64,000 bases of DNA, from positions 667,966 to 731,965 of the forward strand of contig CAWICC010000004.1 in NCBI GenBank assembly GCA_963834535.1, read 5' to 3'. A program made the position numbers and the translations under genes. This DNA is from an uncultured delta proteobacterium (lineage in GTDB: Bacteria; Desulfobacterota; Binatia; Binatales; Binataceae). The notes under the pieces are model-generated. The model did no database searches. It was given only the letters and a program-made list of their open reading frames with translations, and was not told the origin of the DNA. This document shows positions 11,883 to 46,302 of this stretch, piece by piece; within the stretch, counting starts at the first letter, position 1, and each line of letters starts with the position of its first letter.

Positions 11883-11928
11883 TTTCCTAAGATCAGGCGC
11901 TTCAGCATAGCGGTGAAAGCCGCCGAGG

Positions 11929-13278
11929 TTAATCGGGCGGGTAGTCCCAGGCTGGGCTTTGCTTCGGTGCGCCGTCCACCGACGGATTCGAGGCGGGCGG
12001 CGGCGGCGGCGGCGGTTCCGCGGGGGCGGGCTTCGCGGCATCATCCCTGGGCGCCGGAAGCGCCTCGTGCGTTGGACCGGTTTCGGCCGCGGCGTCCTGG
12101 TCGGGCGGGCTCGGCGGACTGGGTAGAAAAGCCGCCAGGCGAGTATAGCCGACGCGGGCGGTGAGGTCGTTAGGCGCCGTGCCGAGAGCGCGCTGATAGG
12201 CCAACGCAGCATCCTCATTCTGGCCCAGCTCTTCGTAGCAATTGCCCTCGAAACCGACGTCTGTCCCGAGCCAATCCGGACGCGCGGCAAAGCCGATTTC
12301 GGCGCGCTGAAGAAAGGTCAGAGCCTGCGTGTAATTGCGACGCGCAATGTAGGCGCGGCCGAGGTAGAAATAGCCGAACGGATTGCCCGGGTCGATCGAG
12401 ACCGCACGCCCAAGGTCACGAATCGCTTCGGCGGTTTGTCCGGCGCGTAACTCCAGGCGCGCCTGTTCGGTCACACGCAGGGCGGCCATGAGCGCGGGTG
12501 TGTCGGCCTTTTTGATCTCGCCGTCGAGCGACGTGTCAGCCAGGTCAGGGCCGCTTTGGATCGATCCGATATCGAGCGCAGGCGGCGGTCCCGCATTGGC
12601 GTCATTCACGCTCTGATTGCCCGCCTCATCCGAGTTGCGCAAAGCCGCGACCCCGGAGTTATTGGCATCGTCAGTTGCTGCGCCATCCGGCGCAGGCGCA
12701 CCCGGCATCAGCGTCGATGCGTGCGATGAACTCGCCGCGGTCTGCGCGGTCGTGAGGCTCGCCGTATGCATTGCGCCTCCGCTTAATGGCGCAGCGCCAT
12801 TGGCCGGCACCGATGCAAGCGCTTTGTCGGAATGCGCACCAGCGGCCGACGGCGGAATTGGCGGCGCGGCAGACGGATTGGGCGGTGCGCCCGGCACCGG
12901 CGCAGTGGGTTTCGCATCGGTGGCCGGATTGCCCGAGGGCACCGAGGAGCCCGGCGGGGCCACCCGTTCCCAATCCTGCGACGGCCCCGGGTTCTCATCG
13001 GGAGCAGCGGTAGTCGAGTCGGCGCGCGGAGCTGTGGGATTTTCGGCCGCGGGCACATTTTGCTCGTCGAGGTGCGCTACTTGCACTGGCGACGCCGTCG
13101 TCACAGATCGCGCGGCGGACGATTCGCCGGGGATCGCGAATATCTGCGCAGGCGATGCGTCGGCGGTATGTGCGAGGCTTAACGTCAGCACGAAAACCAT
13201 CGCGAGTTCGGCCATCGAGCGGCACCAGCCCGCTGAGAGATCCCAACGGGAGGTCTTGATTCTAAAACGGGCGCGCAT
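11929..13278 (-). CDS. Secreted TPR-repeat protein with long Pro/Ala-rich low-complexity regions
   Basis: Signal-like 'MAELAMVFVLTLSLAHTADA' (alternative ATG at 13215). TPR region 'AIRDLGRAVSIDPGNPFGYFYLGRAYIARRNYTQALTFLQRA'. Poly-Pro C-terminal tail. Confidence 0.7.
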   Translation of the reverse strand: MRARFRIKTSRWDLSAGWCRSMAELAMVFVLTLSLAHTADASPAQIFAIPGESSAARSVTTASPVQVAHLDEQNVPAAENPTAPRADSTTAAPDENPGPSQDWERVAPPGSSVPSGNPATDAKPTAPVPGAPPNPSAAPPIPPSAAGAHSDKALASVPANGAAPLSGGAMHTASLTTAQTAASSSHASTLMPGAPAPDGAATDDANNSGVAALRNSDEAGNQSVNDANAGPPPALDIGSIQSGPDLADTSLDGEIKKADTPALMAALRVTEQARLELRAGQTAEAIRDLGRAVSIDPGNPFGYFYLGRAYIARRNYTQALTFLQRAEIGFAARPDWLGTDVGFEGNCYEELGQNEDAALAYQRALGTAPNDLTARVGYTRLAAFLPSPPSPPDQDAAAETGPTHEALPAPRDDAAKPAPAEPPPPPPPASNPSVDGAPKQSPAWDYPPD

Positions 13279-32641: not shown

Positions 32642-33406
32642 TCATCGCGACAGAATTACCTCGCGCCGCACCGCATGCGCGTCGATCTCCACTTCAAGGC
32701 CGACCACCGGCGGCCGCGAGTAGTGCCAGTTCACGCCCACTTGCGCCGCTAATCCGATCGCCGGCAACAGCATCGATGCCAGTACGTGATGCACCTCGTG
32801 AACGGTGTACAGATTCACCGCCGTCGCCTGATCCCAACTGACTTCCAGCTCGCGCAGATGCCCGCTGAGCCCTTCGACGACGCATTCGAGCTTGCGCCGG
32901 ATGCCTCCCGCCGAAGTGTCGCCCGCCGCCACCAACTCGCGCTTGCCGCCCTCGCCGGCACGCATTTCCGCCGCGCCCGACAGCACGAACGTCGCCGCGC
33001 CCGCATCCGCCGATCCGGCCGATCTATCAGTGTAGTAGATGCCCGCCACCATCGCCTCGCGCACCGGACGCACCTCCAGCGCGACGTTGGTGCGCGCGAC
33101 CGGATTGGCGCCGTCGACTTCGATTCCCCACGACTGCAGCCGTTCGATATAAGGGCGATTGAACTCCTCGAAGCCCTTCATCGATAGTGCCTCCGGTATC
33201 CGCAAATGCATCCCGCAGAGCGCCTCGATTGGACGATGCTTCTCCTTGAGGTGCCGTTCGACGATCTCGAAGCCCTGCGCCAGCGCTACGAACGGACGCA
33301 TCGCCGCATGCACTATCTCGAAGCCGGACAACGCCGCACATCCGGAGGAAAATGGCCCGCCACCGCGAATGAAGCGGTAATTGCCCTTGGCGTTTTCGAT
33401 CACCAT
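32642..33406 (-). CDS. Conserved hypothetical protein (254 aa)
   Basis: ATG at 33406 after a GGGAGGAA SD. I recognise no family with confidence. Confidence 0.5.
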   Translation of the reverse strand: MVIENAKGNYRFIRGGGPFSSGCAALSGFEIVHAAMRPFVALAQGFEIVERHLKEKHRPIEALCGMHLRIPEALSMKGFEEFNRPYIERLQSWGIEVDGANPVARTNVALEVRPVREAMVAGIYYTDRSAGSADAGAATFVLSGAAEMRAGEGGKRELVAAGDTSAGGIRRKLECVVEGLSGHLRELEVSWDQATAVNLYTVHEVHHVLASMLLPAIGLAAQVGVNWHYSRPPVVGLEVEIDAHAVRREVILSR

Positions 33407-33586
33407 AGCTGATTCCTCCCTCACTGCCCGCGCATTTTCAGCCTAACCCGCCGTTCACTGCAACGTCGATCGCGGGCGGCCAAAATCGTGCGCGATCCGA
33501 TCGCCGCTTTCATGGACAGTCGCCGCCGGACATTAGTATGATGCGATTTTGGCCTGACCGCAGCGACCAGTTTGGAGAGTTCCACA

Positions 33587-34831
33587 ATGACGCAGCAGGC
33601 ACAGATGCTGAAAGGCTACCACGTCCTCGACTTCACTCATTTCGTCGCAGGCCCCACCTGCACCCGAATCATGGCCGAACTCGGCGCCGACGTAATCAAG
33701 GTCGAGCGCTCGCTCGAAGGCGATCACGTCCGCCAGATGGGCATCATGAAGGACGGGATGAGCACCTATTATTTCCAGCACAGCCATAGCAAGCGGAGCC
33801 TCGGCATCGACCTGCGCCATCCGCAAGCGAAGGACCTGATCCTCGGGATGATTCCGAAGATCGACGTCGTGGTGGAAAATTTTGCCCCCGGCGTCATTAC
33901 CAGCATGGGCTTCGGCTACGAGACGCTCCGAAAGATCAATCCCAAGATCGTCATGTGCTCGATTTCCGCCACCGGACAGACCGGGCCGCTGAGCAATCGC
34001 CCCGGCTATGACTTCATCGGCGCGGCCTTCGCCGGTGTCACCGACCTCCTGGGCGAGGCGGACCGTCCTCCGATCGTCCCCACGATGGCGATCGGCGACG
34101 TCTCCACCGGCGTCGCCGCCGCGATGGCGGTCGGCTACGCCCTGCTCAGCGCCGAGCGCAGCGGCACCGGCCAATACCTCGACGCCTCCCTGCTCGATAC
34201 CTACTTCCACATGCACGAACTCGCCGTGCCGGTGATCTCGCAGCGGCGCGGCACCTGGTCGCCACGGCGCAACGGCTCGCAGCATCCCTCGGGCAGTCCC
34301 ACCGGCGTCTTTCAGGCCAAGGGCGGCTTCATCATGTTGCTCGTCCAGCAGCATGAGTTTGCACGCCTCGCGCGCGCGATGGGCATGCCGGAACTCACGA
34401 CCGACCCGCGCTTCTCGAGCAACGGACGCCGCGTCCGCAACAACGCCGCCTTGAAGGAATTAATCGAGAACTGGCTCGCGACCTTCCCCGATCGCGACTC
34501 CGCCGTCGCCGCGCTCGATAAGGAACGCGTGCCCTGCGGCCCCGTGCTCTCGCTCGAGGAAGCCGTCGATCATCCGCATCTGCGCGAGCGCAAGACCGTG
34601 CGCACCGCCACCGACCCGCGCCTCGGCACCTTCGACCTGCCCGCGATTCCGGTGAAGTTTTCCGACTGGCCCGATCGCACCGACTTGAAGGCGTCCGTGG
34701 TCGGCGAGGACAACGAAGCGGTCCTGCGCGAAATGCTCGGACTTTCCGACGCGCAAATCGCCGAACTATACTCCGCGCACGTCCTCATCAAGGCGTCGCC
34801 CGCGTCGGAGCCCGCGGCGGCTGCGTCGTGA
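33587..34831 (+). CDS. Family III CoA-transferase (CaiB/BaiF family)
   Basis: 'VLDFTHFVAGPTCTRIMAELGADVIKVE', 'MAIGDVSTG' (catalytic Asp context). ATG at 33587 after GGAGAG. Confidence 0.9.
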   Translation: MTQQAQMLKGYHVLDFTHFVAGPTCTRIMAELGADVIKVERSLEGDHVRQMGIMKDGMSTYYFQHSHSKRSLGIDLRHPQAKDLILGMIPKIDVVVENFAPGVITSMGFGYETLRKINPKIVMCSISATGQTGPLSNRPGYDFIGAAFAGVTDLLGEADRPPIVPTMAIGDVSTGVAAAMAVGYALLSAERSGTGQYLDASLLDTYFHMHELAVPVISQRRGTWSPRRNGSQHPSGSPTGVFQAKGGFIMLLVQQHEFARLARAMGMPELTTDPRFSSNGRRVRNNAALKELIENWLATFPDRDSAVAALDKERVPCGPVLSLEEAVDHPHLRERKTVRTATDPRLGTFDLPAIPVKFSDWPDRTDLKASVVGEDNEAVLREMLGLSDAQIAELYSAHVLIKASPASEPAAAAS

Positions 34832-34983
34832 ACGGGGCCGTTATAGGCCGATAGATTTCGCACGCGGTGAACAGCCGCACGCTCAACTTCCGCCGCGGCA
34901 CAAGGCCGTGGCGCAACCAGTACTGCCGGCGGACGCGACCGTAAGGCGCCCACCGCCGCGCTAACAGGGAGGACTTTCAGCAG

Positions 34984-35777
34984 ATGGCAGAATGGACTGA
35001 GGAAATCACCCATATCGCGGGGACTGACCTCGCGATAATCAAGGGCGGCAAGGGTAAGCCGTTGCTCGTGCTGCACGAGGAGCTGGGACATCCCGGATGG
35101 ATGTCTTACCACGAGGAGCTGGCGAAAGACCGCTCGCTGATCATTCCGATTCAGCCCGGCTATCGGCAAATCGCCCCGCGTCGAAGCGGTCCGCAACGTC
35201 CATGAGCTCGGCCTCTTTTATATCTGGGTGCTGAGCGAAATGAACCTGGCGCCGATCGACGTCATCGGCATCTCGATGGGCGGATGGACCGCGGCCGAAA
35301 TGGCCACCGCCAACGCGAAGATTTTCCGCAAGATGGTGCTGGTCGCGCCTTCAGGCATCAAGCCCGCCGAAGGCGAAATCCTCGACATCTTCGCCGTCAC
35401 CATCGGCACCCAGCTCAACGCCACCGTCCACGACCCCGCCGCCACCCCTGAGTTCCGCAAGCTCTACGGCGGCGAGCGTACCCCCGAGCAGTTCGAGGCC
35501 TTCGAGGAAGCCCGCACCGAAAGTGCGCGCATCGCCTGGGATCCCATCCTCCACAACCCCAGCCTGCCCTTCTTTCTCCAGGGCGTGAAGGGTCTGCCGA
35601 CTCATATCGTCTGGGGTCGCGAGGATGCCACCGTTCCCGTCACTGCCGCGGACTCCTATAAACACGCGCTCAGGAATACCGACGTTAAGCTGACCATTTT
35701 CGATCGATTGCGGCCATCGCCCCGAGATCGAGAAGTCCGCCGAATTCGTCAAGCTGGTGCGGGAGTTCCTGGCCTAG
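34984..35777 (+). pseudogene. Alpha/beta hydrolase (meta-cleavage-product-hydrolase-like) interrupted by two +1 frameshifts
   Basis: Frame 1 reads 'PLLVLHEELGHPGW...IQPGY'. An extra c at 35164 shifts to frame 2, 'GKSPRVEAVRNVHELGLFYIWVLSEMNLAPIDVIGISMGGW...LTIFDR'. An extra t near 35708 shifts to frame 3, 'CGHRPEIEKSAEFVKLVREFLA*' (stop 35775-35777). GGGAGGA SD before the ATG at 34984. Confidence 0.8.
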
Positions 35778-35817
35778 AAGCAGCGGAGCTGCCGAGCGCA
35801 GCGCAAGGAGAGAAGCC

Positions 35818-37224
35818 ATGCACATAATGTATTTCACCGAGCGTCCCTACCGCGACGTTCCCGAAGATGAAGTAATCAAAAATCGCAGCTTCTTCGGCGT
35901 CCCCAACCGCTTCTACGACGCCCAGGTCGGCGCGCGCCTCTACAACGAATATCTCGACGAAGACGTCTATGCCGAGGAAGTCGGCTTCGACGCCATCATG
36001 CTCAACGAGCATCACGGCAACCCTTTCTGCATGGGCTCCGTGATGAACGTCGAGGCCGCCATTCTCGCGCGCATCACCAGCAAAGCGCGTATCGTCCTGC
36101 TCGGGAATCCTCTGCCGGTGGTCAAGAACCCCGTCCGCCTCGCCGAGGAACTCGCCGAAATCGACCTCATCTCCAAGGGCCGCCTGGTCCCCGGATGGGT
36201 GCGCGGCGCGGGCAGTGAACAGATTTTCAATCAGGCCAATCCCGCCTACAATCGCGAGTATTTCAACGAGGCTCATGACCTCGTCCTCGCCTGCTGGACG
36301 CGGCCCGGTCCGTTCCGCTGGGAAGGCAAGCATTTCAATTTCCGCTACGTCAATCCGTGGGCGCTCCCCTATCAGAAGCCCCGTCCGCCCATCTGGATTC
36401 CCGGCGTCATCAGCGCCGAGACCGTCATCTGGTGCGCGAAACATCGCTACCCCTACATCGGACTCGGCACCGCCCTGCAATCGACCGTCGAATTGTGGAA
36501 CCTCTACGGTCAGACCGCGGCCGACGAGGGCTACATGGCCGGCACCGAGAACTTCGGCTACCTGCAGCAGATCCACGTCGCCGAAACCGAAGAAGAGGCC
36601 CAGAAGCAGGGCCGTTGCGCCATGTTCGGTGGCGGCGCGGCGAATTTCTCGCGTCCCGAACATACCCTGCCCCCCGGTTACAACTCGAAAGAAGCGACCC
36701 GCCGCCTCGCCCGACAGGCCACCGACTACGGCTTCCTCGGCATCACCTCCGAGAAGCTCAAGGAATCGCAGTCGGGCGACGTGCGCCATATCGGCATCCC
36801 CAAGCAGGGCGAAAGCGACACCCGCGCCAGGCTGCGCAAGGGCGAGATCAGCGTCGAGGAAGCCAAAAAGAAGATCTACGCCAACTATCAGAAGGCGCAG
36901 GACGGCCTCCAGATCATCATCGGCACCCCCAAGACCGTCATCCCCAAGCTCAAGCTCATCATGGAAGTGCTGCGCCCCGGCGTCTTCGGTCTGTTCCAGG
37001 CCCAGGGTCCCCTGACCACCCAACAGCGCCTCACCAGCATCCGCCTGATGGGTCAGGAAGTGCTCCCTGCCATGCGCGAAATCGCCAAGGGCCTCGGCAT
37101 CGTCGATCCCTTCGAACGCGAACCCGGCTCGCGTCCCTACACTTCGGGCACCCAGTACGACTCGCTGGTCGATCTCGAAGCACTCAAGCGTGCGCCCAAG
37201 CGCGACGAATCGGTCCGGGTCTAG
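35818..37224 (+). CDS. LLM-class (luciferase-like) flavin-dependent oxidoreductase, copy 1
   Basis: 'GFDAIMLNEHHGNPFCMGSVMNV', 'LGNPLPVVKNPVRLAEELAEIDLISKGRL'. AAGGAGA SD. Confidence 0.9.
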   Translation: MHIMYFTERPYRDVPEDEVIKNRSFFGVPNRFYDAQVGARLYNEYLDEDVYAEEVGFDAIMLNEHHGNPFCMGSVMNVEAAILARITSKARIVLLGNPLPVVKNPVRLAEELAEIDLISKGRLVPGWVRGAGSEQIFNQANPAYNREYFNEAHDLVLACWTRPGPFRWEGKHFNFRYVNPWALPYQKPRPPIWIPGVISAETVIWCAKHRYPYIGLGTALQSTVELWNLYGQTAADEGYMAGTENFGYLQQIHVAETEEEAQKQGRCAMFGGGAANFSRPEHTLPPGYNSKEATRRLARQATDYGFLGITSEKLKESQSGDVRHIGIPKQGESDTRARLRKGEISVEEAKKKIYANYQKAQDGLQIIIGTPKTVIPKLKLIMEVLRPGVFGLFQAQGPLTTQQRLTSIRLMGQEVLPAMREIAKGLGIVDPFEREPGSRPYTSGTQYDSLVDLEALKRAPKRDESVRV

Positions 37225-37274
37225 CTCATGTCATCGCGAAACTGTAACTCGGCAGTCGGCCAGGAGATAACGAT

Positions 37275-38651
37275 ATGATCCTGATGTATTTTACGGAGCG
37301 CCCTTACCGGGACGTGCCCGAGGACGAAGTAGTCAAGAATCGCGGCTTTTTCGGCGTCCCCAATAAATTCTTCGATCGCGAAGTCGGCGCCCGCCTCTAC
37401 GACGAGTATCTCAAAGAGATGGTCTATGCGGAGGACGTCGGCTTCGACGCCATCATGCTCAACGAGCATCACGGCACGCCCTTTTGCATGGGCGCGGTGA
37501 TGAACGTCGAGGCCTCGATCCTCGCGCGCATCACGAAAAAGGCGCGCATCGTGCTGCTCGGTAATCCATTGCCCACCTTCAAAAATCCACTGCGCATCGC
37601 CGAGGAACTCGCCACCATCGATTGCATCTCCTACGGACGTCTCGTGCCCGGATGGGTGCGCGGCGCCGGCAGCGAGCAGATTTTCAACCAGGCCAACCCC
37701 GCCTACAATCGCGAGCGCTTCGAGGAAGCCCACGACCTCATCCTGGCCGCCTGGACCCGTCCCGGTCCGTTCCGCTGGGAGGGCAAGCATTTCAACTACC
37801 GCTACGTGAATCCGTGGGTGCTGCCGTATCAAAAGCCGCATCCCCCGATCATGATTCCGGGCGTCCTCAGCCCCGAAACCGTCGTCTGGTGCGCCGAGCA
37901 TCGTTATCCCTACCTCGGCCTCGGCACCGCCCTGTCGGCCACGGCCGAACTCTGGAACATTTACGGTGACACCGCAGCCAAGAATGGCTACGTTGCCGGT
38001 TCCGAGAATTTTGGCTACCTGCAGCACGTCTTCGTCGCCGAGACCGAGGAGAAAGCTCAGGAACTCGGCAAGGCGCACCTCTTCGGCGGCGGCCAGGGCG
38101 CATTCTCGCGCCCCGAGCACACTCTCCCCCCAGGCTACAATTCCAAGGAAGCGACCAAGCGCCTCGCTCGCACCATGACGGCCGGCTCCGGCGGCTTCCT
38201 GGGTGTCAGCGCCGAACAACTCGGCCGCTCCAAGTCCAACGACGAGCCCGGCAATCTGCAGCAGGCCGCCGACAGCACGCGGCGCCGCCTCGCACGCGGC
38301 GAAGCCACCGTCGAAGAGGCTAAGGCCGCCATCTACAAGAGCTATCAGAAGGCCCAGGATGGACTGCAGATCATCACCGGCACGCCCAAGACCGTCATCC
38401 CCAAGATTCGCAAGATTCTCGAGGTGCTGCGGCCCGGCGTCTTCGGCGTTTTCCAGAGCCAGGGACCGGTCAGCTTCGAAGACCGCATGACCAGCATCCG
38501 CCTGCTCGGCGAGGAGGTGCTTCCGGCAGTGCGCGAAATCGGCAAGGAACTGGGCATCCTCGACCCATTCGAACGCAAGCCCGGCTCGCGGCCCTATACG
38601 ACCGGCACGCAGCGCGAACAACTGATCTCGCTGGAGGCCCTGCGCGCCTGA
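37275..38651 (+). CDS. LLM-class (luciferase-like) flavin-dependent oxidoreductase, copy 2 (tandem paralog)
   Basis: Collinear with copy 1 over the whole length, e.g. 'MYFTERPYRDVPEDEV', 'RLVPGWVRGAGSEQIFNQANPAYNRE', 'TRPGPFRWEGKHFN'. Confidence 0.9.
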   Translation: MILMYFTERPYRDVPEDEVVKNRGFFGVPNKFFDREVGARLYDEYLKEMVYAEDVGFDAIMLNEHHGTPFCMGAVMNVEASILARITKKARIVLLGNPLPTFKNPLRIAEELATIDCISYGRLVPGWVRGAGSEQIFNQANPAYNRERFEEAHDLILAAWTRPGPFRWEGKHFNYRYVNPWVLPYQKPHPPIMIPGVLSPETVVWCAEHRYPYLGLGTALSATAELWNIYGDTAAKNGYVAGSENFGYLQHVFVAETEEKAQELGKAHLFGGGQGAFSRPEHTLPPGYNSKEATKRLARTMTAGSGGFLGVSAEQLGRSKSNDEPGNLQQAADSTRRRLARGEATVEEAKAAIYKSYQKAQDGLQIITGTPKTVIPKIRKILEVLRPGVFGVFQSQGPVSFEDRMTSIRLLGEEVLPAVREIGKELGILDPFERKPGSRPYTTGTQREQLISLEALRA

Positions 38652-38673
38652 TCGCGAGATTGACTAAACGACT

Positions 38674-38710
38674 GGAAGGAGGCGACCCTTCAGGTCGCCT
38701 CCTTCCGTTT
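38674..38710 (+). terminator. Rho-independent terminator of the LLM operon
   Basis: Perfect 14-bp stem ggaaggaggcgacc/ggtcgcctccttcc, loop cttca, then gttt. Confidence 0.8.
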
Positions 38711-38765
38711 CAAGGGGGTCGCGCACGTGACCCCGATGTCAACCGTGCAGGATTTCCCCACAAAC

Positions 38766-38805
38766 GGACGGCGAAAATGTTTCACGTGAAACATTTTCGC
38801 CGTCC
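38766..38805. repeat. Perfect 40-bp palindrome containing parS
   Basis: ggacggcgaaaatgtttcac|gtgaaacattttcgccgtcc is an exact reverse complement. It is followed by attcgttttt. Confidence 0.95.
38778..38793. other. parS: parS centromere-like ParB-binding site (exact consensus)
   Basis: TGTTTCACGTGAAACA equals the canonical 16-bp parS consensus (tGTTNCACGTGAAACa). It is the only copy in the window. Confidence 0.8.
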
Positions 38806-39036
38806 ATTCGTTTTTGCGACACCCAGCCCGTTAAAGACGATAATACCGTGCCTAATTTTTGAAAAATCTGCGCAATATCGACGGGGAACGCCGCCGCCCC
38901 GTCCCGATCGACCTTCGAATGCGCAATTGCGCGCGCGGGTGGAGGCTGAAATTTCCGTCCGCCGCCTTCTCCCCTCGGCATACGCCCGTGACTTCGTGCG
39001 ATGACACCGCCGATTACCGGCGGCGTCATCGCACAC

Positions 39037-39078
39037 GCCAGAGAGGGGTGCTGACTGAAGTCAGCACCCCTCTCTGGC
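39037..39078. repeat. Perfect 19-bp-stem hairpin
   Basis: gccagagaggggtgctgac-tgaa-gtcagcacccctctctggc. Confidence 0.9.
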
Positions 39079-39083
39079 CGTCC

Positions 39084-39125
39084 TCCGGGACGGGGCGCCG
39101 CGCTCGCGCGGCGCCCCGTCCCGGA
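39084..39125. repeat. Perfect 19-bp-stem GC-rich hairpin (related to the hairpin at 38880-38903)
   Basis: tccgggacggggcgccgcg-ctcg-cgcggcgccccgtcccgga. It shares the gacgggg...ccccgtccc arms with 38880-38903. Confidence 0.9.
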
Positions 39126-39192
39126 CTACAATTCAGCGCGGCAATCTCGCGACCGCCGCCCGTCGCGAATCTTCTACCGAGGACGAACTCTC

Positions 39193-40143
39193 ATGGCAGA
39201 TGCTGGCACCGCCACTATCAACGACCCCGCCCCTCCCGGACTGATCGCCGTCTGGTTGCAGGCCTCCCGCGCCTGGACGCTCGGGATGCCCTTCATGTGC
39301 GTCTCGGTCGGAACCTTCGCCGCCCTTTATTCCCGCGGCGTGTTCTCACCCTGGAGGTACCTTCTCGCCGCGGTCGCCGCGATGGCGTTGCAGGCCGGCG
39401 CCAACATGGTCAACGACTACTACGACTTCGTCACCGGCACCGACTCGCCCGACTGGCAGTCGCCCGAAAACTTCGGCCCCGGTCTGGTCATCCAGCGCGG
39501 CTATCTCAAGCCCGACGCGGTCTTCAAAGGCGGCGTCGTCTCCTTCATCTTCGGCATCGTGCTCGGCCTCGTATTGGTCCATCTATGCGGCTGGCCGATT
39601 CTCATCCTCGGCCTCATCGGCGTGTTCGGATCGTACTTCTACACCGCCGCTCCGCTCAGCCTCGCCTATCACGGACTCGGCGATTTCATGGTCTTCGCGC
39701 TGATGGGTCCCGGCTACGTCCTCGGCGCCTACTACGTTCAGGCGCTGCACTTTTCGTGGGCCGCTTTCATCGCCTCGATTCCTATCGGACTACTCTGTTC
39801 CGGCGTGCTGCAGGCTAACAACCTGCGCGATATCGATAACGACGCCGCGCACGGCAAGCGCACGATGGCCGTGATCATCGGCCGCACCGCCGCCGTCAAG
39901 GAACTCCAATGGTCTAACCTTGGCGCGTACCTCATCGTGCTCTTCGGCGTCGTCATTGGCCTCTTTCCGTGGCTCGCGCTCGCCGTCGCGATCACCGCGC
40001 CACACGCGCTCGAGGAAGTGCGCCTCGTCTCCGAAGGTCCCGATCCCGAACGGCATAACCGTGCGATGGCGCTGTCGGGTCAGTTGCAGTTCGAGTTCGG
40101 CGCAGTCCTCGTCGCCGCCTTCATCCTGGGCCGCCTGCTCTGA
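39193..40143 (+). CDS. menA: 1,4-dihydroxy-2-naphthoate polyprenyltransferase (UbiA family)
   Basis: 'NDYYDFVTGTD' and 'NNLRDIDNDAAHGKRTMAV' motifs. Multi-TM protein. Confidence 0.85.
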   Translation: MADAGTATINDPAPPGLIAVWLQASRAWTLGMPFMCVSVGTFAALYSRGVFSPWRYLLAAVAAMALQAGANMVNDYYDFVTGTDSPDWQSPENFGPGLVIQRGYLKPDAVFKGGVVSFIFGIVLGLVLVHLCGWPILILGLIGVFGSYFYTAAPLSLAYHGLGDFMVFALMGPGYVLGAYYVQALHFSWAAFIASIPIGLLCSGVLQANNLRDIDNDAAHGKRTMAVIIGRTAAVKELQWSNLGAYLIVLFGVVIGLFPWLALAVAITAPHALEEVRLVSEGPDPERHNRAMALSGQLQFEFGAVLVAAFILGRLL

Positions 40144-40317
40144 GCGAGCCGCGCCCGCAGCTTCCGACGGCCCGAAGGGCCGCGCACCGATCGAAGACTG
40201 GATCGCACTCAGGCAAACGCCCGCCGTCGCGTGTCGAGGGATCGCTCTACTTGTCCGGGATGAGGGCAACCCGCTCGGCCAGCGCCCGAGCGGGCTCTTG
40301 ATCTGGTAACCGACCGC

Positions 40318-40734
40318 CTAGAGCTTGCCCTCGGCGAGCGCTTTGTCGAGCGCGCCGATATTGGCGTCGTGGCCGTCGGCCATCACCTTAAGGAACGCCC
40401 GCAGATGCGCATCCGCGATCGTGCCGACCTGATCGCCGATCTTGCGCACCACCCACCGCTGTCCGCGATTGAGCAGTTCCAGCTTGCCCTTGAGGTTGCC
40501 AACCGCGCGCACCTTCTCGACGAAGTCGCCGGTCTTGTTCGACGGCGCGCCGCCGAGGCGCCGCACATGCGCCGCCAGTTCGCCGGCGTAGTAGCCTTCG
40601 TCGTGACCTACCTTCTTCAGCATCTCGCGCAGTTCCAGCGATTGCGCCTGGTCGGTCAATTCATGCAATATCCGGCCGCCGGCGCGCTCTGCTTCGCCAA
40701 GCGAGTTCAGGAAGCTTTCCAAATCGCTATCCAT
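40318..40734 (-). CDS. Ferritin-like/DUF6306-like helical protein (hypothetical)
   Basis: ATG at 40734 after a GAGGTG SD. 'LNSLGEAERAGGRIL', 'HDEGYYAGELAAHVRRLGG'. The family call is tentative. Confidence 0.45.
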   Translation of the reverse strand: MDSDLESFLNSLGEAERAGGRILHELTDQAQSLELREMLKKVGHDEGYYAGELAAHVRRLGGAPSNKTGDFVEKVRAVGNLKGKLELLNRGQRWVVRKIGDQVGTIADAHLRAFLKVMADGHDANIGALDKALAEGKL

Positions 40735-40803
40735 GCTCACTGCACCTCGCGGTTGTAGCCGCAAGTAAACTCTAGCATCGTTCCTCTCGATCCGTATTCC
40801 CCG

Positions 40804-42555
40804 TCACATCAACGGCGCGACCGGGCAATAGACCTGTCCCATCTCCGCGTGCCGCATGAGGACCTCGCGGACTACCGCGACCAACGGAGCGATCGCCCGC
40901 GGCGGCTGCCATGGTGCGACCGAGCCCGAGATTTGCCCGCTCATCAGTTTCCCCAGGAACCCGACCTCCTCCGGCAACTCCTCGAGTTCGGCATGATCCT
41001 GCGGATTCAGGTGCGCCAGTTGCTTGGCCCGATCGATCGCATCGCTGAGGCCGCCCAGCTTGTCCACCAGGTTCACCTTCAAGGCCTGTTCTCCCGTCCA
41101 CACCCGCCCCTGGGCGATATCGTTGACTTGCGCGACCGTCATGTGGCGCTGCTTCGCGACGAGTTCCAGAAAGTATTGATAGGTTCCGCCGAGTAACTGG
41201 TCGCGGAAGATCTGTTCCTGTGCCGGGGTAAAGTCACTGAAAGAATCGAACATCAGCGCGTTGGCGCCGCGCGATACCGCTCCGGTGTTAACCCCGATTG
41301 CAGTAGTCGCGCCCGACACGTTGAACTTGCCGCCGAGGACGCCGATCGAACCGGTCAGCGTGCCGGGATCGGAGATTATCGCTGCCGCCGGAGTCGCCAC
41401 CCAATAGCCGCCCGAGGCCGCGTAGCTCGACATGCTGACGACGACCGGTTTCTTGGCCGCGGTCAATTCGACCGCCCGCCGGATCAGCTCCGACGCGATC
41501 ACCGATCCGCCCGGCGAGTCGATGCGGAACACCACGGCGCGAACGCTATCGTCTTCGCGCGCATCCTTGAACGCCTTGACCATGTCGTCCGATCCCATCG
41601 CCTCCGACCCCGGCGACAGAATCGGATCGAAGCCGCCGGCGCCGCGCTGGATTGCGCCAACACCGTAGATCAGCGCGATCCTGTCGCGGCTACCCCCGAA
41701 ATGCGGGCCCGCCGATCGCACGTACGACGAGGCGTCGATAGTCTCGTGATGTTCGCCGCGATACTTCTCGACGCGATCGTCGAACTGATCTTCGTACTCG
41801 AGGCGATCGAGCAGATGGGCCTTGAGGCCGTCGCTCGCGGTCAGCGGCGCGCGGTCCACGATCGCGCGCATCTGATCGGGCGTCAGATGGCGATGGGCGG
41901 CGGACTCGGCCGTCATCTGATCGAACATGCTGCCCATCAGCGACTCGTCCTCTTCGCGCTGCGCGGGCGTGAAGTCCTTCTCGGTGAAGATGTTGGCGGC
42001 GTCCTTGTACTTGCCGATCGAAGCAAAGTTGGGATTGACCTTGATCCAGTCGAGCAGGCCGCGCGCGAACATTTCGCGCATGCCCACGCCGAGGATGTTC
42101 AGCTCGCCCTGCGGCATCATCGAGACTTCGTCGGCGGTGCTGGCAACCATAAACGGCAGGTTGCCGAAGCCGCCCTCGCCCGCGGTCTCCATGTAGGCGG
42201 TGGTCCATTTGCCGTGGCTGTGGAACTCCGTGATCATCGCGCACAGTTCCTGCGCCTGCGCCAACTCCATCTGCGGGTCGATGACCTTGATCGCCAGCCC
42301 TACAATTCGGTCATCGGTGCCGGCCGATCTGAGCGCGCGCCGAATCACGTTGAGCGCCGTCTGATCGGGACTCAGCATTCCGATCGCATTGGTGGTGCTG
42401 CGTTCGACCACGGGGCCGTCGAGTTTCAGCACCAGCACCGATCCGGGCTTGTAGCGATGGGAGACGTACTGGCTGATGATTATGATCAGGAACAGGATAG
42501 CGAGCATCACTACCGTCTTGACCATCCATCGCAGCAATCTCTTCAGCATGCGCAT
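40804..42555 (-). CDS. sppA: Signal peptide peptidase SppA, 67K type (S49)
   Basis: N-terminal TM segment, duplicated S49 domains, 'SYAASGGYWVA', 'GRVWTGEQALKVNLVDKLGG'. Confidence 0.9.
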   Translation of the reverse strand: MRMLKRLLRWMVKTVVMLAILFLIIIISQYVSHRYKPGSVLVLKLDGPVVERSTTNAIGMLSPDQTALNVIRRALRSAGTDDRIVGLAIKVIDPQMELAQAQELCAMITEFHSHGKWTTAYMETAGEGGFGNLPFMVASTADEVSMMPQGELNILGVGMREMFARGLLDWIKVNPNFASIGKYKDAANIFTEKDFTPAQREEDESLMGSMFDQMTAESAAHRHLTPDQMRAIVDRAPLTASDGLKAHLLDRLEYEDQFDDRVEKYRGEHHETIDASSYVRSAGPHFGGSRDRIALIYGVGAIQRGAGGFDPILSPGSEAMGSDDMVKAFKDAREDDSVRAVVFRIDSPGGSVIASELIRRAVELTAAKKPVVVSMSSYAASGGYWVATPAAAIISDPGTLTGSIGVLGGKFNVSGATTAIGVNTGAVSRGANALMFDSFSDFTPAQEQIFRDQLLGGTYQYFLELVAKQRHMTVAQVNDIAQGRVWTGEQALKVNLVDKLGGLSDAIDRAKQLAHLNPQDHAELEELPEEVGFLGKLMSGQISGSVAPWQPPRAIAPLVAVVREVLMRHAEMGQVYCPVAPLM

Positions 42556-42933
42556 CTAGCGTGCTCCCTTGGCCTGTATCGTTGAGGCCGCGCGAATATC
42601 AGTCGCCGTGATGGCCCGCGATCATCGCGAGCCGTTTCATTCCGCTTGAAAGCTGAGCGGGAAATCCAAATGATAGCCAACCATAACAGCCGGAACTCGG
42701 CTAGTCGCGATTCACGTTGCGGGGCGATGGAGCTTTGCAGACCGGCGCAGCGATCGCAGCGATGAAAGCTGGAAGTGACGGCAGCGAACGCATTGAGCGG
42801 GAGCCGCAAAGCTGGAAGAGAGAGCGATAACCGTAAAAGTGCGAACTGCAGAAGCAATGCTCGCGTGAAGCGCACCGGCGCAGACCTGGCTGCGGCGGCG
42901 AACGATCGCGGCGCGCTCCTGAGCGAGCGCCCG

Positions 42934-44145
42934 ATGGGCGCGATTCATTACCGCATCATTGCGCTGTGTTTCGCGGCGTGGATTTTCGACTTTTACGATC
43001 TGATCCTTTACTCATTCATGATCGTGCCGATCGCGCGCGACCTCCATCTGAGTCAGACGGAGTCGTCGCTGACGCTCGGGCTGGCGCTTGCGATGACGGC
43101 GTTCGGCGGTGTGATCTTCGGCTTCGTCGGCGATCGCTTCGGGCGGCGGCCGACGATCATCGTGGCGGTGCTGGTGTACGGCATCGGCACGACGATGTGC
43201 GCCGCCTCGCACTCGTTGGTGGAATTGCTGCTGTTCCGATCGTTCACCGGGCTGGGTATCGGCGGCGAATGGGCGGCCGGGCAAAGCCTGGTCGCGGAGA
43301 CGGTCCCGCCCGCGCGGCGTGCGCGCTACGCGGCGTACGTGCAGGTTGGCGCGCCGCTGGGTGCGATGCTCGCGGCGGCGGCCGGCGGACATATCGAGCC
43401 GCTGATCGGGTGGCGCAACGTGTTCCTGATCTCGTCCGCGCCGTCGTTCATCGTGGCGGCAATCGTGTGGCGATGGCTGCCGGAGAGCGACGTATGGCTG
43501 CGGGCCGATCGCCGCCAATGGTTCAACGCGGACTCGCTCAGTACGCTGCGACCGTATCGGCGGATTATCGGCCTGCTCTTCGTCGTCTTGCTGGTGAACT
43601 CCGCGGCGTACTGGTTCACCTACACCTGGATGCCGAGCTACCTGCGGCTCGCGCGAGGGTTGACGCCGCAGGCGAGCGGCAACCTGATGATCTGGATGCA
43701 GACGGGGGCGTTGGCGGGATACGCGGCGTTCGGCGTGCTGGCCGATCGGTTCGGGCGACGTCCGGTTTTCTCGATCTATGCCTCGATGATGGGGCTGGGC
43801 TTGCTGCCGGCGACAATCTTCTGGGCGTGGGCGTCGGCGACGCCGGGCCTGATTCGCGGGGCCTTGATCGTAGCGGGCTTCGGCACCGGTATCTGGTCAG
43901 GCGCCGGCCCGATGATATCCGAGATGCTGCCGACCAGCGTGCGCAACACGGCATTAGGACTACTACTGAACGTCACCCGCGGGATTCAGTTTTTCACCCC
44001 GTTGATAATCACGGCGCTGAGCCCGCGATTGGGTTTTGGGCCGACGCTCGCGATTGGCGCGCTGTTCTCGTTTGTGGGAGCGATCATGGTCTGGGCGTTG
44101 CCGGAGACGCGCGGGCGGCGGATTACCGATCTCGATTCGGGCTAG
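42934..44145 (+). CDS. MFS transporter
   Basis: ATG at 42934. 'FGFVGDRFGRRP' and 'FGVLADRFGRRP' are the MFS loop 2-3 and 8-9 motifs. About 12 TM segments. Confidence 0.88.
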   Translation: MGAIHYRIIALCFAAWIFDFYDLILYSFMIVPIARDLHLSQTESSLTLGLALAMTAFGGVIFGFVGDRFGRRPTIIVAVLVYGIGTTMCAASHSLVELLLFRSFTGLGIGGEWAAGQSLVAETVPPARRARYAAYVQVGAPLGAMLAAAAGGHIEPLIGWRNVFLISSAPSFIVAAIVWRWLPESDVWLRADRRQWFNADSLSTLRPYRRIIGLLFVVLLVNSAAYWFTYTWMPSYLRLARGLTPQASGNLMIWMQTGALAGYAAFGVLADRFGRRPVFSIYASMMGLGLLPATIFWAWASATPGLIRGALIVAGFGTGIWSGAGPMISEMLPTSVRNTALGLLLNVTRGIQFFTPLIITALSPRLGFGPTLAIGALFSFVGAIMVWALPETRGRRITDLDSG

Positions 44146-44322
44146 CCGCGCACGCTTTCATCGGGCAGGCCTTCGGCGCGCTGGCTGCACGTCGCGAGAG
44201 CGACGCTATTTGGCTGGCGTTCGCTGAAGATCGCAATAGCGGCGTTTCGTGGCGAGCGTCCGCTGGGGGTCGTGAGCGCGGCGCTCCGCAGCGGGCGTCC
44301 TCTGAAGATCGCGAAAACGACG

Positions 44323-46302
44323 CTATTTGGCGGGAGTCGTTACGGTGTCGGCGCCGTCGAGGTAGGCGTGGCCGGCGTAGCGGGTGAGTTTGAGCGTGGT
44401 GGTGACGCGCGAACTCTTGAGAGCACGCGATACCGTCGCGATGAACGGAGTGCCTTGTGGTTGCGGGTCAACGGGATCGCGGATCCGCGAGGCGCGGGGG
44501 TACGAGCCACTCGCTTCGTGGGCATCGCGCTGATGAGCGTCGATGAGAGCAACTGACTGGCGCGGCCGGGTGCCCTGGGGGACGAGCGCTTCGTGGAGGA
44601 CGCGGCCTGTTACGCCCGGGCTTGGCGCCAGTCTAAGGATTTCGTCCATGGTCGGAGCGACGTCGGCATTTCCGGTCGGCGCGTAATCGACCATGGCGCG
44701 ACGGAAATCGGGACCGACCGCGGCGCAGAAGTTGTGCAGTTCGCGCGATCCGGCGGCTCCATGCATGCCCATCCCGGTCGAGAATGAGTCGGCGTCCGCA
44801 TACATGACACCTGGGATCGGACGCACCAGAGCGCCCGATTTGTTGGTCTGCACTTCGGGGCCATTGGGTCCGATCGTGAAGGCGGGATTCAGCGGACCGG
44901 TAAGCGCGCGATTATCGAGGTCGGGGAACTCGCGAAACGAGACGATCAGATCGGCGGCGCGCGCATTGGGTCCGAGGCCGAAGGCGGCCTGATTGAAGGT
45001 GCCTTCGATCGAACCGCGATAGCCGGATCCGCGATGAGCCGGTCGCGCCGGGTTTGATCCGCCGTCGCCGGAGCCATCGTGGCTGTCAGCACCACCGGCC
45101 GGTTTGGCACCGGCGGGATCGGGCGAGAAGATCGGTCCGCTCCAGTCCTGCGTGTCAGCGTAATCGACAATCCGCTGCATCATCTGATGGCGTTCGGCGG
45201 TGGTCGGGAAATCGGTTTTTGAAAGGTAAATCCAGTCACCGCCGGCGTCGGCGGCGACAACGACGTCCTTGCTGTCGATGGCCTTCTTCAAGCCCGCGGC
45301 GACGAGCAGTCGGGCGAGCGGAACGGTGGCCTTGATGGTGGCGAAGCCGTGATCGGAGACGACCACGAGATCGGTACGATCGGCGATGCCGAGGGCGTCG
45401 ATCGCGGTGCGCAGCGTCGCGAGATTGGCGTCACAGGCATGCAGGGCGTTCAGCGCGGGCTGCGTCCCGAGGCCCGCGACATGCTGCGTGATATCGGGAT
45501 TGTGCTGCCACAAGACGACCAGCGCGGGCTGGCTGCGACTGGAGGCGAGACGAGCCGCCGGCAGCGCCTCGGTGGCGGCGATCTTCGTGAACCAGGCGTC
45601 GCGCGCGATGATCGAAGAATAATCGGTGCGCGTCATCGGGGGCATCCGGGCGAACTCCGCCGTCATGGAGGAGGGCGCGGCCATATCGTCGGCGACGAAG
45701 ATGAAGTTTGGCGACGCCAGTGCGTTGTCTTGCAGATTAGAGAATTGGTCGTCGAACAGTAGCGTCGGGCCCTGCTTACCGATTACGGCGACGAATCCGC
45801 GGGAACGCTCGACCTGCTGAGCCGTGGTGTCCAGGCCGAGCAGATGGCCGTCGAAGATACGCGGGTCGTTCAGTTGAGCGAGGTACTGCGAATGCTCGAG
45901 GTTCAACGGGTCGCCGAGGAGCGGGGCGAACGGCAGGGGTGCGGCGCGAGCCAGATCGATCACGGGTGCGAGATACATCATGTCGCCGTAGATGCCGGAG
46001 TCGCCGGGCGACGCGCCGGTGGCGAGGCCGGCCGCATTGACCATGGTCAAGGTCGGATAGATCGAATGATGACGTGCGAAGCGCACGCCGGCGTGATCGA
46101 GTGCGAAGAGGTTGGGCGTGTTCGCCTGATCGACGAGGTCGGGGCGCAGCCCGTCCCATACCATCAGGACCACGATACGGCCGGCGGCAAGGTTGCCGTT
46201 CGCGGCCGCGTCACTGGCGCCAATTACAGTGCTGATAGTTACCGCAAGGGCGGTGAGAACGGTGAGGATTCGGAGCCTGGAGATTATGGTTGAAGAGCGC
46301 AA
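44323..46302 (-). CDS. Secreted alkaline-phosphatase-superfamily enzyme (nucleotide pyrophosphatase/phosphodiesterase-like)
   Basis: 'VLMVWDGLRPDLV', 'YPTLTMVNAAGLATG', 'VVVSDHGF'. Signal peptide present. TTG start. Confidence 0.78.
   Translation of the reverse strand: MRSSTIISRLRILTVLTALAVTISTVIGASDAAANGNLAAGRIVVLMVWDGLRPDLVDQANTPNLFALDHAGVRFARHHSIYPTLTMVNAAGLATGASPGDSGIYGDMMYLAPVIDLARAAPLPFAPLLGDPLNLEHSQYLAQLNDPRIFDGHLLGLDTTAQQVERSRGFVAVIGKQGPTLLFDDQFSNLQDNALASPNFIFVADDMAAPSSMTAEFARMPPMTRTDYSSIIARDAWFTKIAATEALPAARLASSRSQPALVVLWQHNPDITQHVAGLGTQPALNALHACDANLATLRTAIDALGIADRTDLVVVSDHGFATIKATVPLARLLVAAGLKKAIDSKDVVVAADAGGDWIYLSKTDFPTTAERHQMMQRIVDYADTQDWSGPIFSPDPAGAKPAGGADSHDGSGDGGSNPARPAHRGSGYRGSIEGTFNQAAFGLGPNARAADLIVSFREFPDLDNRALTGPLNPAFTIGPNGPEVQTNKSGALVRPIPGVMYADADSFSTGMGMHGAAGSRELHNFCAAVGPDFRRAMVDYAPTGNADVAPTMDEILRLAPSPGVTGRVLHEALVPQGTRPRQSVALIDAHQRDAHEASGSYPRASRIRDPVDPQPQGTPFIATVSRALKSSRVTTTLKLTRYAGHAYLDGADTVTTPAK

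What the first reader, a model, noticed from the sequence alone, without database searches (positions are those of the whole stretch)
38766..38805. Exact consensus parS site embedded in a perfect 40-bp palindrome
Seen: TGTTTCACGTGAAACA (38778-38793) is the exact 16-bp ParB-binding consensus. The dyad symmetry extends 12 bp further on each side (ggacggcgaaaa / ttttcgccgtcc) without a mismatch and is followed by a T-run. The ORF-track peptide 'MFHVKHF' here is the classic translation artefact of parS.

Established knowledge: chromosomal parS sites cluster in the origin-proximal part of the chromosome. They load ParB and SMC.

Inference: the window is probably origin-proximal, which fits the tmk-holB-ricT-metG-tatD-rsmA synteny 20-35 kb away. 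The unusually long perfect arms could add a second role, such as cruciform formation, a terminator for the LLM operon, or extended ParB contacts.
Basis: partly seen in the sequence, partly recalled or inferred. Interest (0 to 1): 0.62.

Follow-up and report, generated by a model that had tools for sequence, protein, structure and literature searches.

The report
Dispersed extended parS centromere module
The 40-bp palindrome is a real chromosome-segregation (parS) site of an uncultured soil bacterium (Binataceae); it is one copy of a conserved, clade-specific extended parS that also sits beside the parAB genes and is scattered as solitary copies at about 17 other places in a related population's DNA.

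Summary
**Observation:** confirmed. Window 38766-38805 is a perfect 40-bp palindrome centred on the exact 16-bp parS, the only parS in the window.

**Organism:** a Candidatus Binataceae MAG (Binatota), not an alphaproteobacterium.

**The arms are not peculiar to this site.**
- In one Binataceae subclade, most intergenic parS sites in the mnmE-mnmG-rsmG-parA-parB region carry the same symmetric extension: AAARCGAA-N7-G-CGAAAA-parS-TTTTCG-C-N6-TTCGYTTT.
- TTCG lies at +22..+25 in 57-59 of 61 half-sites. The motif is almost never found away from parS (40 of 41 hits in 439 kb; chance 0.3).
- The window's copy belongs to a second class: an ungapped 82-bp block (38738-38819) found at 17 distinct loci, each solitary on a contig of 5-105 kb. 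About 30 Logan contigs in each of two other metagenomes match only this block.
- A close relative with the same LLM-menA synteny lacks the site.

**Reading of the arms:** they evolve independently, with no covariation, so the perfect palindrome reflects a symmetric consensus rather than selection for a hairpin.

**Best reading:** a ParB-loading centromere with sequence-specific extended contacts. Any terminator role is secondary.

The parts
38778..38793 (.). 16-bp parS core TGTTTCACGTGAAACA
   Evidence: Exact consensus and the only one in the window.
38772..38799 (.). 28-bp clade-wide inner site CGAAAA-parS-TTTTCG
   Evidence: The same 28-mer occurs at parAB-proximal sites of Binataceae relatives and at the dispersed copies.
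38766..38805 (.). Perfect 40-bp palindrome. The arms GGACGG/CCGTCC are the family-consensus spacer.
   Evidence: The arms match the family consensus on each side independently: 81 of 119 positions complementary against 80.4 in shuffles.
38807..38815 (.). Outer motif TTCGTTTTT, with TTCG at +22..+25 from the dyad centre and 11 bp from the TTCG of TTTTCG
   Evidence: T22 and T23 in 57, C24 in 59 and G25 in 58 of 61 unique half-sites of parAB-linked loci. These positions were not part of the search pattern.
38761..38764 (.). Left outer motif CAAA, which is TTTG on the other strand: the C-to-T variant of TTCG typical of the dispersed class
   Evidence: Half-site sorting and alignment.
38738..38819 (.). 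Ungapped conserved block of the dispersed ('class B') parS module, -48..+34 from the centre: GTCAA..GTG.AGGATTTCCCCACAAAC-arm-parS-arm-TTCGTTTTTGCGA
   Evidence: Mean pairwise identity among 18 representative copies (the 17 locus groups plus the window) is 0.60-0.87, against 0.27-0.38 in adjoining segments. Blastn of 30 metagenome loci matches the window only here. Logan contigs pile up only here.
38866..38872 (.). Weaker downstream family motif (A/T)TCTGCG, at a fixed distance in 12 of 21 aligned copies
   Evidence: identity 0.55 against 0.35-0.40 beside it.
38674..38706 (+). The LLM operon's own terminator-like hairpin: 14-bp arms (a 15-bp stem in the fold), -34 kcal/mol for the 63-nt segment
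   Evidence: It makes a terminator role for the parS hairpin unnecessary.
38816..38844 (+). Sigma-70-like promoter match (GCGACA-17-GATAAT) just right of the module. A -10-like hexamer stands at the same distance in several sister copies.
   Evidence: Inference only: in the Pfam-verified sister loci the right-hand gene converges on the module.
37275..38651 (+). Upstream gene: luciferase-like monooxygenase, second of a tandem pair
   Evidence: PF00296.
39193..40143 (+). Downstream gene: menA-like 1,4-dihydroxy-2-naphthoate prenyltransferase. Its own conserved GGACTACAAT -10-like element lies near 39125-39135.
   Evidence: The IGR part proximal to menA is conserved in relatives that lack parS.

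Best explanation
The site is a genuine chromosomal centromere (parS) of a Candidatus Binataceae bacterium. ParB-CTP dimers would nucleate on the 16-bp core and then slide off as clamps; this step is inferred from the known ParABS mechanism.

The long arms are not a private feature of this locus. In this subclade parS is a roughly 58-bp symmetric composite site: AAARCGAA-N7-G-CGAAAA-TGTTTCACGTGAAACA-TTTTCG-C-N6-TTCGYTTT. The flank motifs are kept by sequence-specific purifying selection. They are most likely contacted by ParB itself, or by an unidentified partner protein, on one face of the helix, since the two TTCG motifs on each side lie 11 bp apart.

The window's copy belongs to a second class in which an 82-bp block has been multiplied to about 17 solitary positions, mostly downstream of genes and often between convergent genes. 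It entered the LLM-menA spacer after the split from the nearest relative that lacks it.

The perfect 40-bp palindrome arises because both arms happen to carry the family-consensus spacer. If transcribed, it would form a -34 kcal/mol hairpin followed by AUUCGUUUUU, which may incidentally stop read-through from the LLM operon.
For: **Shown**
- Exact parS and perfect palindrome.
- MenA homologues, and the ParB proteins next to identical sites, are named Candidatus Binataceae by NCBI.
- The rsmG-parA-parB operons of relatives carry 2-5 parS each. Most sit in the spacers with CGAAAA/TTTTCG flanks and the outer TTCG motif.
- Loci fetched through ParB alone, and so not selected by flank, show the extension at 74-77% ParB identity to the L187 protein (L212, L213, L214). 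They do not show it at 57-65% (L211, L215, L216).
- In the half-site logo, TTCG at +22..+25 is present in 57-59 of 61 half-sites, while the spacer and everything beyond +29 is unconserved.
- TTTCG-N7-TTCG[CT]T occurs 41 times in 439 kb of clade DNA, 40 of them abutting parS; chance expectation is 0.3.
- Dispersal: only L001, L153 and L156 are orthologues of the LLM-menA locus. The other GC-rich loci match the window only over about 38732-38821. There are 17 locus groups, each seen once per sample and with one parS per held locus.
- In runs X2 and X4, 31 and 30 Logan contigs were laid, nearly all only on 38731-38821. Summed depth there is 340-540, against about 10 on the LLM gene.
- Presence/absence: L001 keeps the site, while L003, with the same synteny, has none within the locus held.
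- No arm-arm covariation.
- Pfam-verified neighbours: 6 of 6 right-hand genes and 3 of 4 left-hand genes converge on the module.

**Inferred**
- ParB binding and clamp loading.
- Who contacts the flanks.
Against: - No binding data exist; the organism is uncultured.
- The ParB HTH region is almost unchanged between the clades with and without the extension. The few clade-specific residues lie in the N-terminal region, linker and C-terminal domain, so nothing in ParB itself explains the longer site.
- Positions 9-14 of the logo are partly ascertained by the 28-mer search pattern.
- The 17 loci come from three related metagenome samples and are assigned to one population by argument, not by binning.
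- The conserved asymmetric left arm (GTCAA..GGATTTCCCCACAAAC) and the +81 motif have no explanation.
Confidence: 0.7

Rival explanations
1. The arms exist mainly for RNA. The module is a (bidirectional) intrinsic terminator, or a structured RNA, that happens to contain parS, and selection acts on the hairpin.
For: - The pattern scan calls 38766-38805 plus ATTCGTTTTT terminator-like.
- The RNA hairpin is -34.3 kcal/mol on the + strand and -39.4 on the - strand, with z about -8.
- The module sits downstream of genes, often between convergent ones.
- Long perfect palindromes around parS are also over-represented in other phyla.
Against: - There is no covariation between the arms.
- In parAB-proximal sites the N7 spacers are not complementary, yet TTCG is invariant. 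A U-tract does not need a conserved CG, and there it lies 6-8 nt from the stem base.
- On the - strand the hairpin is followed by GUUUGUGG, a poor U-tract.
- The LLM operon already has a hairpin at 38674-38706.
- No Rfam family matches.
- No RNA run holds the locus.
Confidence: 0.15
2. The dispersed copies are a selfish MITE/REP-like repeat that captured a parS. The window's copy is a neutral passenger with no role in segregation.
For: - There are 17 solitary copies in unrelated gene contexts.
- Presence/absence polymorphism exists between close relatives.
- Assemblies break at the repeat.
- The left arm (GCAGGATTTCCCCACAAAC) weakly resembles the inverted right-hand motif (GTTTTTCCGGAAATCTGC); this was my own by-eye comparison of the sequences printed.
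Against: - No transposase, target-site duplication or clean terminal inverted repeats were found.
- Conservation within the module is uneven: 0.76-0.87 in the block against 0.33 in the internal segment. That indicates selection on the parS-proximal block rather than recent copying.
- The parS core is letter-perfect in all copies, and the same flanks are kept at the parAB operon.
Confidence: 0.12
3. The palindrome is the operator of a different DNA-binding protein (for example a regulator recognising CACGTG or TTCG repeats), not of ParB.
For: - The outer TTCG-N7-TTCG arrangement at 11-bp spacing resembles the tandem sites of winged-helix regulators (my own knowledge).
- The ParB HTH region does not differ between clades.
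Against: - The core is the exact universal parS.
- The outer motif never occurs without it (40 of 41).
- The sites cluster at rsmG-parA-parB.
- A partner protein binding together with ParB is already covered by the best explanation.
Confidence: 0.03

Closest known systems
Chromosomal ParABS parS sites (B. subtilis Spo0J, Caulobacter ParB; consensus TGTTNCACGTGNAACA)
   Same: - The 16-bp core is identical.
- Canonical ParA and ParB (ParB_N + HTH_ParB) are present in the clade.
- Sites cluster beside rsmG-parA-parB next to rnpA-yidC-jag and mnmE-mnmG.
- There are additional sites elsewhere on the chromosome, as in B. subtilis.
   Different: - Here about 21 further bp on each side carry conserved, symmetric motifs (CGAAAA, then TTCG 11 bp further out) that occur only with parS.
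- The extra sites are copies of one 82-bp module.
- My two literature searches found no description of such an extension.
Composite plasmid/phage centromeres: P1 parS (box A, box B and an IHF site) and F sopC (tandem 43-bp units each holding a 16-bp inverted repeat)
   Same: The centromere is longer than the HTH-bound palindrome, with additional motif classes or conserved repeat-unit flanks. In P1 these are read by a second ParB surface and a bending protein (my own knowledge).
   Different: - This is a chromosomal type Ia ParB with the universal parS core.
- The copies are solitary and dispersed, not tandem.
- No IHF site or second DNA-binding domain has been shown.
Bdellovibrio bacteriovorus parS chromosomal context (Kaljevic et al. 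2023, PMC10547168)
   Same: Short chromosomal regions around each parS ('extended parS') change ParB behaviour, preventing ParB focus formation. This is a precedent that parS flanks are functional.
   Different: - The Bdellovibrio effect was shown experimentally; the passages I read named no flank motif.
- Here a motif is defined by comparative sequence, with no functional data.
REP/BIME and MITE-type intergenic repeats
   Same: A short palindrome-containing unit, multi-copy, in 3' intergenic positions, with presence/absence variation between relatives, and breaking short-read assemblies.
   Different: - Copy number is low (about 17).
- The centre is a perfect centromere site shared with the parAB locus.
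- No RAYT or transposase link, target-site duplication or clean terminal inverted repeat was found.

Membership tests
Chromosomal ParB-binding parS site | 16-bp palindrome matching TGTTNCACGTGNAACA | tested here: met
   Exact match at 38778-38793.
Chromosomal ParB-binding parS site | Cognate ParB (ParB_N + HTH, GERRxRA) encoded by the same genome | not testable with these tools
The feature is met in clade relatives: Binataceae ParB with PF02195 + PF17762.
Chromosomal ParB-binding parS site | The same site sequence occurs next to the parAB operon of the lineage | tested here: met
   CGAAAA-parS-TTTTCG with the outer TTCG motif lies in the mnmE/mnmG/rsmG/parA spacers of L131, L137, L167, L187, L194, L212, L213 and L214.
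Chromosomal ParB-binding parS site | Location in the origin-proximal part of the chromosome | tested here: inconclusive
   - No ori-region genes among the window genes scanned at 1167-23392 and 32642-46302, and no ParA/ParB/RsmG/DnaA signature motif anywhere in the window.
- In a relative, menA and parAB lie on different contigs of the same assembly.
- The sister copies are spread over at least about 0.95 Mb of contigs.
Chromosomal ParB-binding parS site | ParB binding or spreading shown in vivo or in vitro | not testable with these tools
   The organism is uncultured and no ChIP or RNA data exist. The best sequencing runs hold only 5-8% of the sampled words.
Rho-independent (intrinsic) terminator | GC-containing stem-loop directly followed by a U-tract, downstream of a gene | tested here: met
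   Met on the + strand only: an 18-bp stem, -34.3 kcal/mol, followed by AUUCGUUUUU. The - strand is followed by GUUUGUGG.
Rho-independent (intrinsic) terminator | The stem is maintained by compensatory change, and transcript 3' ends lie at the U-tract | tested here: not met
   There is no arm-arm covariation, and the stems of parAB-proximal sites do not extend to the T-run. Transcript 3' ends could not be tested because there are no RNA runs.
MITE/REP-type dispersed repeat | Multiple dispersed copies with a conserved unit and insertion polymorphism | tested here: met
   17 locus groups share the 82-bp block, and the site is absent from L003.
MITE/REP-type dispersed repeat | Terminal inverted repeats, target-site duplication, or an associated transposase/RAYT | tested here: inconclusive
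   Only a weak left/right motif resemblance was seen, judged by eye on the sequences. The filled and empty sites are too diverged to define the ends. No transposase lies nearby.

The most novel reading that the evidence does not exclude
A Binataceae subclade has evolved a roughly 58-bp composite centromere. The universal 16-bp parS is flanked on each side by two helically phased TTCG motifs that occur nowhere else. They are read by ParB surfaces outside the HTH or by an unknown centromere-specific partner protein. The lineage has spread this site as a domesticated 82-bp module to about 17 solitary positions over a megabase or more, perhaps to seed ParB/SMC loading along the chromosome. A wider hint points the same way: 33 of 136 AAAA-parS-TTTT sites from many phyla lie in perfect palindromes of 30 bp or more, and Methylocella has its own multi-copy 44-48-bp version. 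Lineage-specific extended parS modules may therefore be a general, overlooked feature of bacterial centromeres.
Probability: 0.3. Interest if true: 0.72.

Novelty: new variant of a known kind. Interest (0 to 1): 0.55.

Why it matters
parS is treated as a 16-bp site that is sufficient for ParB loading. Here comparative sequence alone defines an extra, strictly parS-linked, symmetric motif pair kept under selection across species. It also shows the centromere being copied around the chromosome as a module.

- If the flanks are read by ParB or by a partner, that would add a new specificity layer to ParABS. It would also give a sequence handle on the kind of flank effect already seen experimentally in Bdellovibrio.
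- If they are not, the family is still a useful marker of chromosome organisation in an uncultured phylum.
- It is also a practical warning that these repeats break short-read assemblies.

Tried and rejected
- **Exact-protein look-up of the window's MenA:** not on record.
- **The single genome-contig scan:** I spent it on the 24-mer AAAATGTTTCACGTGAAACATTTT. It gave the cross-phylum palindrome statistics, but not the copy number in this species.
- **Rfam:** only sub-threshold hairpin and miRNA-like noise.
- **RNA evidence:** no run holds the locus; shares are 0.05-0.08 and all runs are DNA metagenomes.
- **DnaA-box idea for TTCCCCACA in the left arm:** it matches 7 of 9 positions of TTATCCACA. 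The rnpA-mnmE spacers of L212 and L213 show no cluster of such boxes, so I dropped it.
- **Sigma-70 promoter reading outward from TTGAC on the left arm:** 17 nt downstream stands ACCCCC, not a -10 element. Rejected.
- **Promoter on the right (TTGCGA...GATAAT):** the geometry is plausible in several copies. But the right-hand genes mostly converge on the module, and menA has its own conserved GGACTACAAT element. Left open.
- **GC hairpin left of GTCAA:** present in many copies but not all, and not robust.
- **ParB alignment, clades with versus without the extension:** no informative change in the HTH.
- **Earlier scan notes:** nothing on parAB or oriC of this genome.

Full report
**1.

- Window 38766-38805 reads GGACGGCGAAAATGTTTCACGTGAAACATTTTCGCCGTCC and equals its own reverse complement.
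- The centre, 38778-38793, is the exact parS consensus. It is the only match in the window at up to 2 mismatches, and shuffles give a mean of 0.08 hits at up to 3 mismatches.
- It is the longest perfect palindrome in the window; the next is 22 bp.
- It lies in the 541-bp spacer between a luciferase-like monooxygenase gene (37275-38651, +) and a menA-like UbiA prenyltransferase gene (39193-40143, +).
- ATTCGTTTTTG follows it, so the consensus scan calls it terminator-like on the + strand.

**2.

- MenA homologues at 65-93% identity come from soil metagenomes. Where NCBI names them, the name is Candidatus Binataceae, and in two older records 'Deltaproteobacteria bacterium'. The organism is therefore an uncultured Binatota MAG.
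- The window's own MenA is not in the protein collection.
The presence of parB and of further parS copies in this very genome could not be checked.

**3. Orthologous loci**

- L001 (MenA 95% identical, same LLM-LLM-menA order) keeps the exact parS. Its arms read AGACGGCGAAAA / TTTTCGCCTTCC. That is a 32-bp perfect palindrome, with two non-compensatory differences from the window in the outer 4 bp.
- L002-L005 (MenA 84%) have no parS at up to 3 mismatches, in the spacer or anywhere in the flanks held. L002 and L003 keep the same synteny; L004 and L005 start just upstream of menA. L006-L010 have none either.
- The part of the spacer next to menA is shared by all. It holds two perfect hairpins and a GGACTACAAT element. 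menA therefore has its own upstream signals, and the parS block is a lineage-restricted addition.

**4. The arms are a clade-wide feature of parS**

A metagenome scan with the 28-mer CGAAAATGTTTCACGTGAAACATTTTCG returned 80 loci. The GC-rich ones fall into two classes.

*Class A* sites lie beside rsmG-parA-parB (signature motifs; ParB ORFs).
- These ParB proteins form one family. Their named database relatives are 'ParB/RepB/Spo0J [Candidatus Binataceae bacterium]', with PF02195 + PF17762.
- The gene context is jag-yidC-yidD-rnpA | mnmE-mnmG-rsmG-parA-parB.
- Six loci were fetched through ParB alone and so were not selected by flank. L212, L213 and L214 (ParB 74-77% identical to the L187 protein) carry the extension. 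L215, L216 and L211 (65, 62 and 57%) do not.
- A logo of 61 unique half-sites reads GTGAAACA|TTTTCG|C-N6|TTCG(Y)TTT. T22 and T23 occur in 57 of 61, C24 in 59 and G25 in 58. The spacer, and everything beyond +29, is at background.
- The TTCG of TTTTCG and the outer TTCG are exactly 11 bp apart.
- In 439 kb of clade DNA, TTTCG-N7-TTCG[CT]T occurs 41 times, 40 of them abutting a parS half-site. Shuffles give 0.3.
- The flank motifs are therefore under sequence-specific selection and are an integral part of the centromere site, not an independent operator.

**5. The window's copy belongs to a dispersed class (class B)**

- Blastn shows that only L153 and L156 (and L001) are orthologues of the LLM-menA locus. 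The other GC-rich loci match the window only over about 38732-38821.
- Alignment gives an ungapped block from -48 to +34 around the dyad (window 38738-38819): GTCAA..GTG.AGGATTTCCCCACAAAC-GGA(C/A)GG-CGAAAA-parS-TTTTCG-CC(G/T)TCC-(A/G)TTCGTTTTTG.
- Mean pairwise identity in this block is 0.60-0.87, against 0.27-0.38 beside it. A weaker (A/T)TCTGCG motif stands at a fixed distance on the right.
- One half keeps TTCG. The other carries TTTG followed by the asymmetric arm.
- There are 17 locus groups. Within the three related JGI samples that supplied nearly all copies, each group appears at most once per sample.
- Each class-B contig gave a single locus in the exact 28-mer scan, and each held locus has one parS at up to 2 mismatches.
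- The contigs are 5-105 kb long. Their longest versions sum to about 0.95 Mb; this sum is my own arithmetic from the contig lengths.
- Independently, in a soil run and a peat run, 31 and 30 Logan contigs were laid on the stretch. Nearly all lie only on 38731-38821 and many end inside the palindrome. Summed depth there is 340-540, against about 10 on the LLM gene, and the loose ends differ from contig to contig.
- Ten flanking ORFs were confirmed by Pfam as unrelated metabolic or transport genes. Six of six right-hand genes and three of four left-hand genes point towards the module.

**6. Why the palindrome is perfect here**

- Across class-B copies the two arms vary (GGACGG or GGAAGG; CCGTCC or CCTTCC).
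- Arm-to-arm complementarity is 81 of 119 positions, which equals the shuffled expectation of 80.4; 2409 of 5000 shuffles reach it.
- Each arm follows a symmetric family consensus on its own, and the window's copy happens to carry the matching variants.
- This argues against selection for a hairpin or cruciform at individual sites and for recognition of the sequence on each side.
- As RNA the hairpin would nevertheless be very stable: -34.3 kcal/mol on the + strand and -39.4 on the - strand. On the + strand it could stop read-through from the LLM operon, which already has its own hairpin at 38674-38706.
- No RNA data exist to test this. No Rfam family matches.

**7. Who reads the flanks is open**

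- The ParB HTH segment is almost unchanged between clades with and without the extension.
- The few clade-specific residues lie in the N-terminal region, the linker and the C-terminal domain.
- Extended contacts by non-HTH parts of ParB and an unknown partner protein are both possible.
- A precedent for functional parS surroundings exists in Bdellovibrio, where short chromosomal regions around each parS prevent ParB focus formation (PMC10547168).
- Two literature searches gave no description of a conserved extended parS motif or of parS-bearing dispersed modules. Absence from that library is not proof of novelty.

**8. Origin proximity is not established**

- The window contains tmk, holB, a PSP1/ricT-like gene, metG, tatD, rsmA, tsaD and other housekeeping genes.
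- It contains none of the ori-region genes that accompany parAB in this family.
- In one relative, menA and parAB lie on different contigs of the same assembly.
- The dispersed copies are widely spaced. They may still lie within a broad ori domain; only a complete genome can tell.

**9. Wider context, seen in passing**

- Of these, 33 lie in perfect palindromes of 30 bp or more, against my estimate of about 2-3 expected. Twelve lie in palindromes of 40 bp or more.
- The flanks differ by lineage. Methylocella and Methylocapsa MAGs carry several copies per genome of TCAATCGTACC-AAAA-parS-TTTT-GGTACGATTGA, with two or three interchangeable arm types.
- Lineage-specific extended parS modules may therefore be common.

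**10. Verdict**

This is a real parS of a known system, in an unusual, clade-specific extended and multiplied form. I rate it a new variant of a known kind, of moderate interest. The mechanism of the flanks is inferred, not shown.

Noticed in passing
L011-L130 (genome-contig hits of AAAATGTTTCACGTGAAACATTTT): Of 136 such sites from many phyla, 33 lie in perfect palindromes of 30 bp or more and 12 in palindromes of 40 bp or more (up to 48 bp). Chance expectation is about 2-3. The flank sequence differs by lineage, spanning Clostridia, Bacteroidota, Spirochaetes, Acidobacteriota and Alphaproteobacteria.
   Followed up: partly
L020, L032, L045, L051, L052, L062, L069, L078, L079, L085, L095, L098, L107, L111, L116, L121: Methylocella, Methylocapsa and related alphaproteobacterial MAGs carry a multi-copy extended parS, TCAATCGTACC-AAAA-parS-TTTT-GGTACGATTGA, forming 44-48-bp perfect palindromes. 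Two or three arm types (gtacc, ttacc, ggaca) are sometimes mixed on the two sides. One MAG (DATJTB01) has 7 sites on 6 contigs.
   Followed up: no
window 38996-39125: Three near-perfect hairpins (17-, 20- and 20-nt arms) lie upstream of menA. The last two, and the GGACTACAAT element after them, are conserved in relatives that lack parS (L003, L006). They look like REP-like elements or a menA leader/promoter structure.
   Followed up: partly
L187:4718-4773: One parAB-proximal parS of a related population is a perfect 56-bp palindrome: AAACGAATAAAAGGCGAAAA-parS-TTTTCGCCTTTTATTCGTTT. This is the fully symmetric form of the extended site.
   Followed up: partly
L212:3470-3500 and L213:2170-2200: The rnpA-mnmE spacer of two Binataceae holds a TTTCGCGAAACGA(A/T)T element that resembles the parS flank motifs but has no parS core.
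   Followed up: no
L001:8101-9623: In the closest relative the second LLM gene is called as two ORFs (398 and 109 aa) instead of one of about 460 aa. This suggests a frameshift or an assembly error there.
   Followed up: no
L216:2787-5262 and 10962-12637: A more distant Binataceae has restriction-modification genes (XamI-like, Eco57I-like) and a DNA methylase with Vsr inserted around its mnmG-rsmG-parA-parB cluster.
   Followed up: no
L131:9843, L131:10930, L194:3369, L212:9028: Each parAB region also holds parS copies without the extension. One of them sits just upstream of the parA start and is orthologous across species, so not every site of the clade carries the flanks.
   Followed up: partly
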